From: Escherichia coli
Lineage (GTDB): Bacteria > Pseudomonadota > Gammaproteobacteria > Enterobacterales > Enterobacteriaceae
Length of the DNA stretch: 64,000 nucleotides
Direction: 5' to 3' (one strand)
Assembly (NCBI RefSeq): GCF_024298765.1
Contig: NZ_CP101210.1
In this document: one piece after another, positions 59,585-61,249 of the stretch
How the letters are laid out: every line of letters begins with the position of its first letter
Numbering within the stretch: the stretch's first letter is position 1
Notes under the pieces: generated by a model
Told to the model about the DNA's origin: nothing
Database searches by the model: none
What the model saw: only the letters and a program-made list of their open reading frames with translations
Program-made: the position numbers and the translations under genes

Positions 59585-60394
59585 ATGTCACTTCCTGTTC
59601 CTTTTGGTGCAATTGTTACAGTAGTGAAGAAATGCTGGTCTACTCTTACCCAGATAATGCTGATAAAAACTTATCAACTCTCACATGAGCGCTGGGCAGT
59701 GAGACACAGGCTAGGGGCGAGCTGGCATTCCTTAGGGAATTATTTGGAGTACAGTCTACGATTTGCTCAGTTGACAGATAAAGAACCTCGTTGTTCACGT
59801 ATTGCTTTCAGAAGCAAAGAGGAACGACTGCAACAAGTTGAACTTGTTTTTGAAGCCATTGGCAGTGGCTTACGCTACCAAGAAACACTATGCATTCATG
59901 ATGTAAATAACTCACCGATAATATTAACGCTTTCAAATATTCCTACACTTGATGTACTTATTCTAGATGATGGATTCGCATTTACGGTTGAACAGTACCA
60001 GTTAAAATATTGCACGATAAAATTAATGACTGGTGAAAGTATATCTATTGACAATTCGCCCAAATATTCGCTAATGCAAAACTGGTGTCTCAATGATACA
60101 TGGAAACGGCGTTGGGGTATCATCTGGAACTGTAATGCAATTGAATGTGCCCGAAGGCGTATTGCTGAATATTGGAAATGGGGCTTTTGTCTGCCGTTAG
60201 TGGGACGCCCCCCGTTATATTCACCATCGCGAAAAGGTATTCATCTGTTTGAAGCAAAACCGTTACGCTGGTTTATGACACGCCCATGGTGTCTGAATAT
60301 CCAGTTTTGGACGGCAATTTGGTCAGGACTGTTTATTCTCAGCGATGAGAATGTCTTGCAATGGCGCTGGAAAGAGCCACCACAACAAGACTAA
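59585..60394 (+). CDS. hypothetical protein, 269 aa, Trp-rich C-terminus
   Basis: Uninterrupted ORF bounded by hairpin repeats B and C. No family recognised. Confidence 0.45.
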   Translation: MSLPVPFGAIVTVVKKCWSTLTQIMLIKTYQLSHERWAVRHRLGASWHSLGNYLEYSLRFAQLTDKEPRCSRIAFRSKEERLQQVELVFEAIGSGLRYQETLCIHDVNNSPIILTLSNIPTLDVLILDDGFAFTVEQYQLKYCTIKLMTGESISIDNSPKYSLMQNWCLNDTWKRRWGIIWNCNAIECARRRIAEYWKWGFCLPLVGRPPLYSPSRKGIHLFEAKPLRWFMTRPWCLNIQFWTAIWSGLFILSDENVLQWRWKEPPQQD

Positions 60395-60408
60395 CTTTCA
60401 CGAAGGCC

Positions 60409-60432
60409 GTCCGCTCTGAGCGAGGAGCGGAC
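60409..60432. repeat. hairpin repeat family, copy C (GTCCGCTC-TGAGCGAGG-AGCGGAC)
   Basis: Perfect 8-bp stem located 15 bp after the stop of ORF 59585-60394. No downstream T-tract. Confidence 0.65.
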
Positions 60433-60511
60433 CTCAGTGCTGGTTAGATTAACTAGTCTAATTGTGACTACCTAATTTGAAACGATATAAAAATGGTATG
60501 ATACATGATCA

Positions 60512-61249
60512 CTAATCTTTATCTGGAATATCTCTCGCATCGTAATAATCAATCCCAAGTCCAAAGCTTAACTCAAGCCCCTCAGGACCTCCGTGGATAT
60601 CGCCAACCCCAAATGTATTTGGAGCATTATTATTTCTGAATTTTTCAAGATCATTTTTATTTGGAGGCGATTTGTCGTCATTAGAGAGATCTGGAAGTGG
60701 ATCTAACTCAAAATAATCAACTCCAGCAGGGTTATAGGCAAGGTAAAAATTTCTATAGTTGCCAGGATTTCCTAAATAATGCCCTTCTTCATATTGATAG
60801 AACTTCGAAGAATAGCTCGACTGTAAATAATCAATATCACTTCCAAAATCTTTGAACTTATGTCCAAGGGTTTTTCTCAGATATGGTACTTCAGGATGAA
60901 AATTCTCATCCTTGCTGGTTACGGAATAGAGTATCACTGTGTTATTATTATCATAAACCACTTGCAGATAGAACTTTTTGAAAGAGTAAATATACTCATG
61001 AACCCTCCCATCCTCAGAATGTTCTTCCTTCACGGGAGGGCCAAAAATTGACTCGATGTACTTTATTGACGCTCCGGTGTAAATCACATGAAGATTATCC
61101 TCTGCTTTTTTTTGCAAAAAATTATCTGCGATATGTTGATATAAATCAAACACTCCGTTCAATGCAACAAAATATCCAAGAACAGCAAGAATACCACTCA
61201 AAAAAACAGTAATTAATGATTTTTTAAGTTTTTTAGGGGGATGTGACAT
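60512..61249 (-). CDS. hypothetical membrane-anchored protein, 245 aa
   Basis: ORF with a single N-terminal hydrophobic helix (LITVFLSGILAVLGYFVALNGVF) and Tyr/Asn-rich body. AT-rich codon usage. Confidence 0.45.
   Translation of the reverse strand: MSHPPKKLKKSLITVFLSGILAVLGYFVALNGVFDLYQHIADNFLQKKAEDNLHVIYTGASIKYIESIFGPPVKEEHSEDGRVHEYIYSFKKFYLQVVYDNNNTVILYSVTSKDENFHPEVPYLRKTLGHKFKDFGSDIDYLQSSYSSKFYQYEEGHYLGNPGNYRNFYLAYNPAGVDYFELDPLPDLSNDDKSPPNKNDLEKFRNNNAPNTFGVGDIHGGPEGLELSFGLGIDYYDARDIPDKD

What the first reader, a model, noticed from the sequence alone, without database searches (positions are those of the whole stretch)
59585..61249. Two convergent unknown proteins between hairpin repeats
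ORF 59585-60394 (Trp-rich C-terminus) and ORF 60512-61249 (single N-terminal TM helix, Tyr/Asn-rich, AT-rich codons) have no recognisable family. They are convergent and separated by hairpin copy C. Their codon usage looks foreign relative to the core genes, and they could be cargo of the cassette-like module.
Basis: inference. Interest (0 to 1): 0.45.

Follow-up and report, generated by a model that had tools for sequence, protein, structure and literature searches.

The report
Two mobile gene cassettes: AbjA and ETEC_3214
The two "unknown" genes are real, separately mobile single-gene cassettes: one is AbjA, a recently reported factor that kills cells receiving certain conjugative plasmids, and the other is an uncharacterised envelope protein, and both are bounded by short palindromic recombination sites that also move defence genes between P2-type phages, plasmids and genomic islands of enterobacteria.

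Summary
The window is 100% identical to E. coli CFT073 over the 3.4 kb tested. Both ORFs are real genes (dN/dS 0.13-0.20; full-length homologs down to 40% identity).

- **ORF1 (59585-60394)** is CFT073 c0293 = abjA. A March 2026 preprint shows it is necessary and sufficient for "abortive conjugation" through the T4SS ATPase TrbE.
- **ORF2 (60512-61249)** belongs to the named ETEC_3214 family. It is predicted to be a membrane-anchored periplasmic protein with a BLIP/BamE-like fold. Its function is unknown.

The "hairpins" are 24-nt palindromes of two kinds, which I call X and Y. They share arms and differ in the central spacer.

Strain comparisons show exact breakpoints at these sites. The two genes occur separately, split at hairpin C. 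APEC E12049 has the cassettes in another order with four reciprocal hybrid sites. JJ1886 has the empty site, and ETEC-2264 has lost int plus HEC-08 by X-by-X deletion. The same sites flank fun(Z) in phage P2, and repeats there were reported in 2004.

A 202-aa tyrosine recombinase always sits between a half-X and a half-Y site. It is the likely enzyme, but this is inferred from association only.

Verdict: the cassette-cargo reading is supported, the "no recognisable family" claim is out of date, and novelty is modest.

The parts
53633..53656 (+). Y-type site 'S1' (GTCCGTTGTGAGCGAACAGCGGAC), the left boundary of the iron-uptake cassette
   Evidence: It is the reciprocal partner of site C in the APEC E12049 rearrangement.
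54096..59102 (-). Four-gene iron-uptake operon (ABC ATPase, FecCD permease, binding protein, TonB-dependent receptor), bounded by Y (53633) and X (59353). It behaves as one large cassette.
   Evidence: ORFs and annotation. It is moved as a unit in E12049.
59353..59376 (+). X-type site 'A' (GTCCGCCTTTGGCACAGAGCGGAC)
   Evidence: In JJ1886 this site is joined directly to the backbone flank that follows window site 63621.
59395..59418 (+). Y-type site 'B' (GTCCGCTGAGAGCGAGGAGCGGAA). It starts 42 nt after the start of A, forming the X-linker-Y junction typical of adjacent cassettes.
   Evidence: X-to-Y junctions at 38-42 nt spacing (one at 31 nt) were seen 21 times across loci. The junction is 94% identical to one in P2-like phage 899.
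59585..60394 (+). ORF1 = abjA (CFT073 c0293, WP_001305362.1), 269 aa, an abortive-conjugation factor
   Evidence: The tested 3.4 kb is 100% identical to CFT073. Gene order relative to the integrase c0291 comes and the preprint. The Salmonella homolog is 91.1% identical at nucleotide level, as the preprint states. dN/dS is 0.196. The family alignment has 40 invariant residues.
60409..60432 (+). Y-type site 'C' (perfect palindrome GTCCGCTC-TGAGCGAG-GAGCGGAC), the boundary between the two cassettes
   Evidence: Matches in other genomes start or stop exactly here (query 991-2016 only, or 1-1014 only). Reciprocal hybrids with S1 are shown.
60512..61249 (-). ORF2 = c0292, ETEC_3214 family protein (WP_000019301.1), 245 aa, with an N-terminal membrane anchor and a periplasmic BLIP/BamE-like domain
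61316..61344 (-). Promoter-like site TTTACT-17-TAGAAT for ORF2
   Evidence: It places the transcription start near 61310, which is 61 nt upstream of the ATG. That is the distance mapped by primer extension for ETEC_3214 in H10407 (PMC5554520).
61435..61458 (+). X' half-site (GTCCGCATCTGGCACAG|GACTGCT). The left arm and spacer are conserved and the right arm is replaced. It lies just past the int stop codon.
   Evidence: It is conserved next to int in loci from five genera. It has recombined with X 63621 in ETEC-2264 and JL05, giving the hybrid GTCCGCATCTGGCACAGAGCGGAC.
61477..62085 (-). 202-aa tyrosine recombinase (c0291, WP_001305361.1), a catalytic domain with only about 36 N-terminal residues
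   Evidence: PF00589 scores 69 bits against a cut-off of 27. It falls far below the XerC/D, integron-integrase and invertase cut-offs. R53, K81, H150-x-x-R153, H176 and Y184 are read from the sequence. It is 93-99.5% identical on plasmids of many Enterobacterales genera. It is present in about 770-860 of 5426 E. coli genomes.
62077..62115 (.). 15-bp perfect inverted repeat spanning the int start codon; possible control element
   Evidence: (I10).
62119..62142 (+). Y' degenerate site (GTCCTTATGAGCGAGGCGCGGAAG) upstream of int, the left boundary of the HEC-08 cassette
   Evidence: D3. An equivalent Y' lies next to int in L003, L018 and L029.
62475..63578 (+). HEC-08 (c0290), a HEPN plus zinc-ribbon anti-phage protein
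   Evidence: PADLOC PDLC04162 at E 1e-173. Defence activity and the H128 mutant are reported in bioRxiv 10.1101/2024.01.29.577857.
63621..63644 (+). Terminal X-type site (GTCCGCTCCTGGCACAGAGCGGAC), the junction with the island backbone
   Evidence: It has the same right flank as the single X of JJ1886. Reciprocal hybrids with A in E12049 are shown.

Best explanation
The two ORFs are two independent single-gene cassettes in an array of cassettes on the CFT073 aspV island. Each cassette is delimited by 24-nt palindromic recombination sites.

**The sites.** There are two kinds. They share the arms GTCCGCT / AGCGGAC and differ in the central spacer: X has cTGGCACAg and Y has nTGAGCGAgg. X is roughly an inverted Y with two spacer differences. 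The window reads: Y [iron-uptake operon] X-18nt-Y [abjA] Y [ETEC_3214] X' [int] Y' [HEC-08] X - backbone.

**How cassettes move.** This step is inferred from comparative junctions. Cassettes move by conservative site-specific recombination between sites of the same kind, X with X and Y with Y, with strand exchange inside the spacer. This produces excision of circles, re-insertion elsewhere, deletion, and exchange between replicons (islands, plasmids, conjugative elements, P2-like prophages). The 202-aa tyrosine recombinase that sits between a half-X and a half-Y site is the most likely catalyst. It probably acts in trans on arrays that lack it. This is inferred from association only.

**What the cargo does.** ORF1 is AbjA. 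According to the 2026 preprint it binds the VirB4-type ATPase TrbE of incoming IncP/IncW plasmids and kills the recipient cell. That is experimental work by others and was not tested here. ORF2 (ETEC_3214) has its own sigma-70 promoter. It is predicted to be a bitopic inner-membrane protein whose periplasmic part has a BLIP/BamE-like protein-binding fold. My best guess, at low confidence (about 0.3), is an envelope-located binding, inhibitor or exclusion protein such as a defence or immunity function. It is not a partner of AbjA.
For: **Identity**
- The tested 3.4 kb is 100% identical to CFT073. Gene order is HEC-08, int, ETEC_3214, ORF1, TonB receptor.
- The preprint states that c0291 is the integrase, that c0290-c0292 lie upstream of abjA = c0293, and that Salmonella alleles are about 91% identical. 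I measured 91.1%.

**Real genes**
- dN/dS is 0.196 for ORF1 and 0.13-0.15 for ORF2.
- The ORF1 profile finds 195 cluster representatives at E<=1e-3.
- ORF2 has 40 homologs down to 40% identity.

**Sites more frequent than chance**
- 5 matches against 0.05 expected.

**Cassette boundaries**
- Other genomes carry only ORF2 (match starts at the first base of site C) or only ORF1 (match ends at the last base of C).
- JJ1886 has a single X where CFT073 has a precise 4,268-bp insertion.
- ETEC-2264 and JL05 join ETEC_3214 directly to the backbone through a hybrid X, made of the left arm of X' and the right arm of X 63621.
- APEC E12049 has the segment order c-b-a instead of a-b-c, all in the same orientation. 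All four junctions are reciprocal hybrids. The crossovers are confined to the 7-nt (Y) or 15-nt (X) stretch that the partner sites share.
- A 99% identical abjA sits in the Z/fun hotspot of a P2-like prophage between hybrid Y sites.

**Same sites in phages**
- P2 fun(Z) is flanked by an X-like and a Y-like site.
- Phage 899 has two cassettes separated by an X-Y junction 94% identical to the window's.

**Recombinase association**
- X'-int-Y' has the same arrangement in E. coli, Klebsiella, Pantoea and Rahnella loci.
- Int is 93-99.5% identical across genera.
- The catalytic residues are intact, as read from the sequence.

**Site arms**
- The arms are conserved in sequence with almost no covariation (77 X and 47 Y distinct sites). 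This fits protein-binding arms.

**ORF2**
- The promoter position matches the mapped transcription start (PMC5554520).
Against: - No experiment links the 202-aa recombinase to the sites. Most X/Y arrays seen lack it nearby, including all the P2-like phages and many loci. tblastn finds no close copy in the phage collection (best 58% identity).
- The sites are short, so rare illegitimate or short-homology recombination cannot be formally excluded for any single event.
- abjA is flanked by Y on both sides rather than by Y...X, so the cassette grammar is not uniform.
- Distant homologs of both genes occur with no X/Y sites.
- The assignment c0293 = ORF1 rests on gene order and on matching properties. 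It is not a sequence printed in the preprint.
- The function proposed for ORF2 rests only on fold resemblance and neighbourhood. The preprint reports that c0290-c0292 do not contribute to conjugation inhibition.
- I could not read Nilsson et al. 2004, so I cannot say how much of the site description is already in it.
Confidence: 0.78

Rival explanations
1. ORF1 and ORF2 form one two-gene functional system, for example a toxin-immunity or sensor-effector pair. The hairpin between them is just a shared bidirectional terminator.
For: They co-occur in 218 of the 239 E. coli genomes that have either gene. The preprint found abjA with c0290-c0292 in 86 of 118 cases. They are convergent with a GC-rich palindrome between them.
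Against: - Each gene occurs alone, with the break exactly at hairpin C.
- Neither gene had a homolog of the other next to it in the contexts inspected for more distant relatives.
- abjA alone is sufficient in heterologous hosts, and c0290-c0292 do not contribute.
- The hairpin has no T-run and is not picked up by the terminator scan.
- The same palindrome family bounds unrelated genes.
Confidence: 0.05
2. The palindromes are passive repeats, such as REP-like elements, terminators or remnants. The rearrangements reflect ordinary homologous or illegitimate recombination and island decay, not a dedicated site-specific system.
For: The sites are short. Their folding energies are unremarkable for most copies (z-scores between -0.8 and -1.5 for A/B and C). 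Many arrays have no recombinase nearby. IS elements are frequent in these regions.
Against: - Four reciprocal hybrid junctions occur in one strain pair, with crossovers inside 7-15 nt of identity.
- Independent events share the same geometry: precise insertion, deletion and transfer into a P2 prophage.
- From general knowledge, RecA-dependent exchange needs longer identity.
- Copy number is low, 1-3 places per genome, and the places inspected lie in accessory regions. A dispersed REP family would not look like this.
- The arms are conserved in sequence across genera.
- A tyrosine recombinase is wedged between half-sites in a constant arrangement.
Confidence: 0.1
3. The sites are real recombination sites, but the enzyme is not the 202-aa integrase. 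It could be host XerC/XerD (as for Acinetobacter pdif modules) or a phage-encoded recombinase, and int would be just another cargo gene.
For: P2-like phages and many arrays carry sites without this int. int is present in only about 15% of E. coli genomes, whereas site-like sequence occurs in about 27%.
Against: - int is always bracketed by X' and Y' in the same orientation.
- It is unusually conserved across genera.
- Comparing from memory, the site (7-10-7, GTCCGCT arms) does not resemble E. coli dif.
- The X' site has demonstrably taken part in recombination.
Confidence: 0.15

Closest known systems
AbjA, abortive conjugation protein A (E. coli CFT073 c0293; bioRxiv 10.64898/2026.03.10.710775)
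   Same: ORF1 is this gene. The tested 3.4 kb is 100% identical to CFT073. ORF1 is the second gene beyond the integrase c0291, has no domain annotation, is concentrated in CFT073-like strains, and has Salmonella alleles at 91% nucleotide identity.
   Different: Nothing differs in the gene itself. Three points are added here.
- abjA is a discrete cassette bounded by Y sites, and it also occurs in a P2-like prophage hotspot and in a Salmonella conjugative element.
- The protein family is much wider than the 'rare, largely E. coli' picture. The profile search gives 195 representatives, and cluster look-ups place relatives in Pseudomonas, Halomonadaceae and Francisellaceae.
- The searched text of the preprint does not mention flanking repeats or cassettes.
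ETEC_3214 family (NCBIfam NF043066; Hodson et al. 2017, PMC5554520)
   Same: ORF2 scores 180 bits against a cut-off of 35. It is 245 aa with a predicted N-terminal TM segment. The paper itself notes the gene in CFT073. The promoter position agrees with the mapped transcription start.
   Different: In ETEC the gene is activated by the virulence regulator CfaD. Whether that regulation matters in this strain was not examined. Function is unknown in both. New here are the fold assignment (BLIP/BamE-like) and the finding that family members are cargo of three different platforms: X/Y cassettes, a Vibrio cholerae integron cassette, and cargo of conjugative elements.
Variable 'Z/fun' locus of P2-like phages with flanking inverted repeats (Nilsson, Karlsson and Haggard-Ljungquist 2004, Mol Biol Evol 21:1; summarised in PMC8987985)
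   Same: The same site family is involved. P2 fun(Z) lies between an X-like and a Y-like site, phage 899 has an X-Y junction 94% identical to the window's, and a 99% identical abjA sits at this phage locus in strain PCP06022.
   Different: Here the array is on a chromosomal island, includes a four-gene iron-uptake operon, and contains a candidate recombinase gene. I could not read the 2004 paper, so I cannot say whether the two site types, the crossover position or the recombinase were described there.
Integrons (IntI integrase, attI, attC gene cassettes)
   Same: It works alike in outline: arrays of small, mostly single-gene units delimited by imperfect palindromes, excision and re-insertion that reorders cassettes, arrays lacking the integrase, and defence genes as frequent cargo. 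An ETEC_3214 homolog is a true integron cassette in V. cholerae.
   Different: - The recombinase is not an integron integrase: TIGR02249 scores 15.9 bits against a cut-off of 265, and it is 202 aa.
- The sites are 24-nt palindromes with conserved arms, not 57-141-nt attC sites.
- Cassettes carry their own promoters and lie in both orientations.
- There is no evidence for a single-stranded folded substrate.
Acinetobacter pdif modules (XerC/XerD sites flanking resistance and other genes); compared from memory
   Same: Discrete modules are bounded by short recombinase core sites in alternating orientation. Here X is approximately an inverted Y. Modules are shuffled among replicons.
   Different: pdif sites are 28-bp dif-like XerC/XerD sites served by the host Xer system. 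Here the site sequence and geometry differ, and a dedicated small recombinase gene is embedded in the array.

Membership tests
AbjA (abortive conjugation protein A) | Is the CFT073 gene c0293 or a close allele | tested here: met
   The tested 3.4 kb is 100% identical to CFT073. ORF1 is the second gene beyond the integrase c0291 in ascending coordinates (preprint text). The Salmonella allele is 91.1% identical at nucleotide level against '~91%' in the preprint.
AbjA (abortive conjugation protein A) | Blocks establishment of IncP/IncW plasmids by binding TrbE (VirB4) and causing cell death | not testable with these tools
   Experimental property reported in the preprint. No computation here bears on it.
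ETEC_3214 family (NF043066) | Scores above the curated cut-off of the NCBIfam domain model | tested here: met
   180.3 bits against a cut-off of 35, E 2.1e-53, covering model positions 2-175 of 175.
ETEC_3214 family (NF043066) | About 245 aa with one N-terminal transmembrane segment | tested here: met
   245 aa. The hydrophobic segment at residues 12-30 follows KKLKK. The AF2 model has a long N-terminal helix at 6-51. This agrees with PMC5554520.
P2 Z/fun-type cassette (flanking inverted repeats of Nilsson et al. 2004) | Bounded by the same inverted-repeat sites that flank fun(Z) in P2-like phages | tested here: met
   P2 has an X-like site at 15335-15358 and a Y-like site at 17432-17455 around fun(Z). 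Phage 899 has an X-Y junction 94% identical to window 59352-59421. abjA lies at this locus in a prophage.
P2 Z/fun-type cassette (flanking inverted repeats of Nilsson et al. 2004) | Exchange between genomes occurs at the repeats | tested here: met
   Reciprocal hybrid sites and exact breakpoints are seen in five independent comparisons.
Integron gene cassette | Integron integrase (IntI-type, with the extra IntI-specific domain) | tested here: not met
   TIGR02249 scores 15.9 bits against a cut-off of 265, and NF011946 scores 13.4 against 435. The protein is only 202 aa.
Integron gene cassette | attC site (57-141 nt imperfect palindrome with R''/L''-L'/R' boxes) at the 3' end of each cassette | tested here: not met
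   The sites are 24-nt palindromes of two kinds with 7-8-nt arms. For contrast, the V. cholerae homolog lies between 106-nt VCR repeats.
Integron gene cassette | Mostly promoterless cassettes in one orientation, read from Pc | tested here: not met
   abjA and ETEC_3214 are convergent. ETEC_3214 has its own mapped promoter.
Tyrosine recombinase (Phage_integrase, PF00589), for the neighbouring int | Catalytic domain above the Pfam threshold, with the R-K-H-R-H/W-Y residues | tested here: met
   69 bits against 27.1. R53, K81, H150, R153, H176 and Y184 are read from the sequence. There is no PDB relative by sequence at E<=0.001.
Xer/dif (pdif) module | Flanking 28-bp XerC-spacer-XerD dif-like sites | tested here: not met
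   The consensus GTCCGCT-N10-AGCGGAC has a different length and sequence from dif. The dif sequence was recalled from memory and not aligned here.

The most novel reading that the evidence does not exclude
The 202-aa catalytic-domain-only tyrosine recombinase and the two heterospecific palindromic sites X and Y may form a distinct cassette-exchange platform found across the Enterobacterales. It would amount to a natural version of recombinase-mediated cassette exchange: integron-like in outcome and pdif-like in grammar.

If so, it would be the missing mechanism behind defence-gene swapping at the P2 Z/fun hotspot. It would also explain how AbjA, HEC-08, Fun(Z), retron Ec48 and even an iron-uptake operon move among phages, plasmids, conjugative elements and islands.

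Under this reading ETEC_3214 would be a further, still uncharacterised envelope-acting defence or immunity gene.
Probability: 0.45. Interest if true: 0.7.

Novelty: new member of a known kind. Interest (0 to 1): 0.45.

Why it matters
AbjA has been reported as the first recipient-encoded defence aimed specifically at conjugation. Showing that it is a self-contained cassette explains how such a factor spreads. It has exact recombination boundaries, it also occurs in a P2-like prophage and in a Salmonella conjugative element, and it belongs to a family reaching Pseudomonas. This suggests it serves competition between mobile elements as much as host protection.

More broadly, P2 hotspots are now a major source of new anti-phage systems, yet the papers I could read do not give a mechanism for their rapid turnover. 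The X/Y sites plus a candidate recombinase make that mechanism directly testable with simple plasmid assays.

ETEC_3214 is carried by three different cassette or cargo platforms and is regulated with virulence genes in ETEC. That makes it a reasonable candidate for a new envelope-level function.

Tried and rejected
- **Family searches for ORF1.** Pfam, NCBIfam, PADLOC and PHROGs gave no match.
- **Int against solved structures.** phmmer against PDB sequences found nothing at E<=0.001.
- **RNA families.** Rfam at E<=1 over 53000-64000 found nothing.
- **Hairpins as terminators.** They have no T-run and are not found by the terminator scan. Folding z-scores are ordinary for most copies.
- **Hairpins as structure-selected elements.** The arms show almost no compensatory change, so sequence-specific protein binding is the better reading.
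- **ORF1-ORF2 as an operon or pair.** Rejected, see the rival explanations.
- **Classical integron.** Rejected on both integrase and site criteria.
- **Sites around distant ORF1 homologs (L005-L009).** None were found.
- **ORF1 in phage records.** tblastn of ORF1 against the phage collection gave no match. The prophage copy was found only through the E. coli genomes.
- **Literature.** Searching the papers for the site sequences found nothing. Nilsson et al. 2004 and Odegrip et al. 2006 are not held. The 2026 P2/P4 hotspot preprint does not mention palindromes or a dedicated recombinase.
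Full report
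**What is there**

The region from 59100 to 62500 is 100% identical to E. coli CFT073 and other ST73-type strains such as Nissle 1917 and ABU 83972. It lies in the aspV island.

- ORF1 is 59585-60394 (+), 269 aa. ORF2 is 60512-61249 (-), 245 aa. Both exist as described.
- ORF1 has 15 Trp, 11 of them in the last 100 residues.
- ORF2 has 21 Tyr and 18 Asn, GC 35.8%, and a single strongly hydrophobic N-terminal segment.
- GC content is 42% and 36%, against 55% for the neighbouring iron-uptake operon.
- A perfect 24-nt palindrome lies between the convergent genes at 60409-60432.
- The pattern GTCCGC-N12-GCGGAC occurs 5 times in the window, against 0.05 expected.

**Both ORFs are genes**

- ORF1 has full-length homologs down to 40% identity, with 40 invariant residues.
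- A profile of those homologs finds 195 cluster representatives at E<=1e-3.
- Cluster look-ups place relatives in Pseudomonas, Halomonadaceae and Francisellaceae.
- ORF2 has 40 homologs across Enterobacterales and Vibrionaceae.
- Nei-Gojobori dN/dS is 0.196 for ORF1 against its Salmonella allele, and 0.13-0.15 for ORF2 against Enterobacter, Hafnia and Dickeya genes.

**What the proteins are**

ORF2 matches the NCBIfam domain ETEC_3214 at 180 bits against a cut-off of 35. In ETEC H10407 this gene is directly activated by CfaD, and its transcription start is mapped 61 nt upstream of the ATG. The authors noted the gene in CFT073 and predicted one TM segment. They did not determine a function (PMC5554520). 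In the window, the promoter-like site TTTACT-17-TAGAAT at 61344-61316 on the minus strand puts the start at about that distance.

ORF1 has no Pfam, NCBIfam, PADLOC or PHROGs match. A literature search on the old CFT073 locus tags found bioRxiv 10.64898/2026.03.10.710775. The preprint reports the following.

- Tn5 insertions and a deletion of c0293, named abjA, raise pRK24 transfer into CFT073 about a million-fold.
- abjA alone is sufficient in other E. coli, Salmonella and Klebsiella.
- It acts on pRK24, R751 and R388 through the T4SS ATPase TrbE.
- AbjA co-purifies with TrbE, and co-expression depletes ATP and kills the cell.

The preprint says c0291 is a putative integrase and that c0290-c0292 lie upstream of abjA and do not contribute. 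In CFT073 coordinates the order is HEC-08, integrase, ETEC_3214, ORF1, TonB receptor. So ORF1 is c0293. Two further properties agree. The preprint describes no domain annotation and Salmonella alleles at about 91% nucleotide identity, and I measure 91.1%. ETEC_3214 is spread over many genera, so it would not fit the preprint's 'largely restricted to E. coli'.

**The hairpins are recombination sites of two kinds**

Collecting copies from the window and from related loci gives two consensus sequences.

- X = GTCCGCT(t)-cTGGCACA-gAGCGGAC
- Y = GTCCGCT(n)-TGAGCGAg-gAGCGGAC

The arms are the same, the central spacers differ, and X is roughly an inverted Y. Across 77 distinct X and 47 distinct Y copies the arms are conserved in sequence. 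Variants mostly break pairing rather than compensate for it. That fits protein-binding arms better than selection for a folded hairpin. Adjacent cassettes are joined by X-18nt-Y junctions, seen 21 times at 38-42 nt start-to-start spacing, with one at 31 nt.

The window reads as follows:

Y(53633) [iron-uptake operon] X(59353) Y(59395) [abjA] Y(60409) [ETEC_3214] X'(61435) [int] Y'(62119) [HEC-08] X(63621) backbone

HEC-08 is a HEPN protein with published anti-phage activity.

**Evidence that cassettes move at these sites**

1. Among 239 E. coli genomes with either gene, 218 have both. Some have only ETEC_3214, with the match starting at the first base of site C. One has only abjA, with the match ending at the last base of C.
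2. JJ1886 has one X between the iron operon and the backbone. Its left flank matches window site A and its right flank matches the flank of site 63621. CFT073 therefore carries a precise 4,268-bp insertion.
3. ETEC-2264 and JL05 join ETEC_3214 to the backbone through the hybrid site GTCCGCAT-CTGGCACA-GAGCGGAC. This is the left part of X' joined to the right part of X(63621), and int plus HEC-08 are deleted.
4. APEC E12049 has the order ETEC_3214-int-HEC-08 / abjA / iron operon, with every segment in its original orientation. All four junctions are reciprocal hybrids of the CFT073 sites. The crossovers are confined to TGAGCGA for the Y pair and to TGGCACAGAGCGGAC for the X pair. One Y-by-Y excision followed by one X-by-X insertion explains the arrangement.
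5. A 99% identical abjA lies between hybrid Y sites in the Z/fun hotspot of a P2-like prophage.

Crossovers within 7-15 nt of identity, repeated in independent lineages, point to conservative site-specific recombination rather than homologous recombination. This last step relies on general knowledge of the length requirements of RecA.

**Link to phage P2 and spread**

- In P2 itself, fun(Z) lies between an X-like and a Y-like site.
- Phage 899 has two cassettes at that locus, separated by an X-Y junction 94% identical to the window's.
- A review summarises Nilsson et al. [quoted passage not shown] I could not obtain the 2004 paper.
- An exact X pattern occurs in 43 loci of a one-genome-per-species collection. 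Nearly all are Enterobacterales, often in arrays with cassette-like spacing.
- X-Y-like sequence is present in 1483 of 5426 complete E. coli genomes at 1-3 places each.

**The candidate recombinase**

The 202-aa protein is a tyrosine recombinase: PF00589 scores 69 bits, and R53, K81, H150, R153, H176 and Y184 are read from the sequence. It has almost no N-terminal domain. It falls far below the cut-offs for Xer, integron integrases and Fim-type invertases, and it has no PDB relative by sequence.

In E. coli, Klebsiella, Pantoea and Rahnella it is bracketed in the same way. X' lies past its stop codon and Y' lies before its start, and the arms nearest the gene are degenerate. It is 93-99.5% identical on plasmids of many genera. 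It occurs in about 15% of E. coli genomes.

P2-like phages carry the sites but not this gene. If it is the enzyme, it must act in trans. This assignment is an inference from association.

**Other contexts of the two families**

- The Salmonella abjA allele sits in the cargo region of a conjugative element, with degenerate sites around it.
- More distant ORF1 relatives lie next to Lamassu-like genes on a conjugative element, without X/Y sites.
- ETEC_3214 relatives occur in several settings:
  - as a single-gene cassette between VCR repeats in V. cholerae;
  - in the cargo of a Dickeya conjugative element;
  - beside a retron Ec48 bounded by Y and X in a Hafnia P2-like prophage.
- Neither gene had a homolog of the other next to it in these more distant contexts. 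This, together with the preprint's genetics, rules out a two-gene system.

**Verdict**

'Unknown proteins' is out of date: one is AbjA and the other is a named family of unknown function. The site family was noticed in 2004.

This analysis adds the following:
- the two-site grammar;
- the junction-level evidence for excision, insertion and reordering;
- the constant placement of a small recombinase between half-sites;
- the cassette nature and wider family of AbjA;
- a fold assignment for ETEC_3214.

None of the mechanistic steps has been tested experimentally here.

Noticed in passing
window 53633-59376: The four-gene iron-uptake operon (ABC transporter plus TonB-dependent receptor) is itself bounded by a Y and an X site. 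It has been relocated as a unit in APEC E12049. So the system moves multi-gene metabolic or virulence cargo, not only small defence genes.
   Followed up: partly
window 62077-62115: A 15-bp perfect inverted repeat with a 9-nt loop spans the start codon of the recombinase gene. It could be a translational or transcriptional control element for int.
   Followed up: no
window 62475-63578; L017 6508-8609: The gene next to int is HEC-08, a published HEPN anti-phage protein. The identical Int protein (WP_001305361.1), with an adjacent gene of the same length as HEC-08 (1101 bp, identity not checked), is on Pantoea ananatis plasmid pPANA10. This would imply recent transfer of the int plus HEC-08 unit between genera.
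   Followed up: partly
L019 1894-2930 (Vibrio cholerae contig): A 48% identical ETEC_3214 homolog is a single-gene cassette between 106-nt VCR (attC) repeats, next to ccdAB and other typical superintegron cassettes. The same family is therefore cargo of two unrelated cassette systems.
   Followed up: partly
L068 3083-6640 (Hafnia alvei P2-like prophage): An 87% identical ETEC_3214 gene lies beside a retron Ec48 (reverse transcriptase plus effector) bounded by Y-like and X-like sites. The pair sits between the tail genes S and V, a second variable locus of P2-like phages.
   Followed up: no
L066 7811-10760 (Salmonella Manhattan contig): The Salmonella abjA allele sits among TraG/TraU/TraC genes of a conjugative element. 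An anti-conjugation factor carried by a conjugative element suggests competition between elements.
   Followed up: no
window 59538-59552 and 60478-60492: The 15-mer TGAAAYGATATAAAA, which resembles an extended -10 element, occurs downstream of both Y(B) and Y(C). The first copy is 33 nt before the abjA start. The second points into the 3' end of ETEC_3214 in antisense.
   Followed up: no
window 61435-61458 and equivalents in L002, L016-L018: The right arm of the X' site next to int is not random decay. It is a conserved GGRCTGCT in several genera, which hints at a specialised half-site, possibly attI-like.
   Followed up: no
L002 1-14260 (E. coli TUM17543): Another array has int plus HEC-08 flanked by different cargo (a dynamin-family operon, a GNAT acetyltransferase, a DUF2971 protein). 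X-Y junctions lie at 8193/8235 and 11660/11702.
   Followed up: partly
window 34001-35000: This is the lowest-GC kilobase of the window (30.8%), far from the finding. It was not examined.
   Followed up: no
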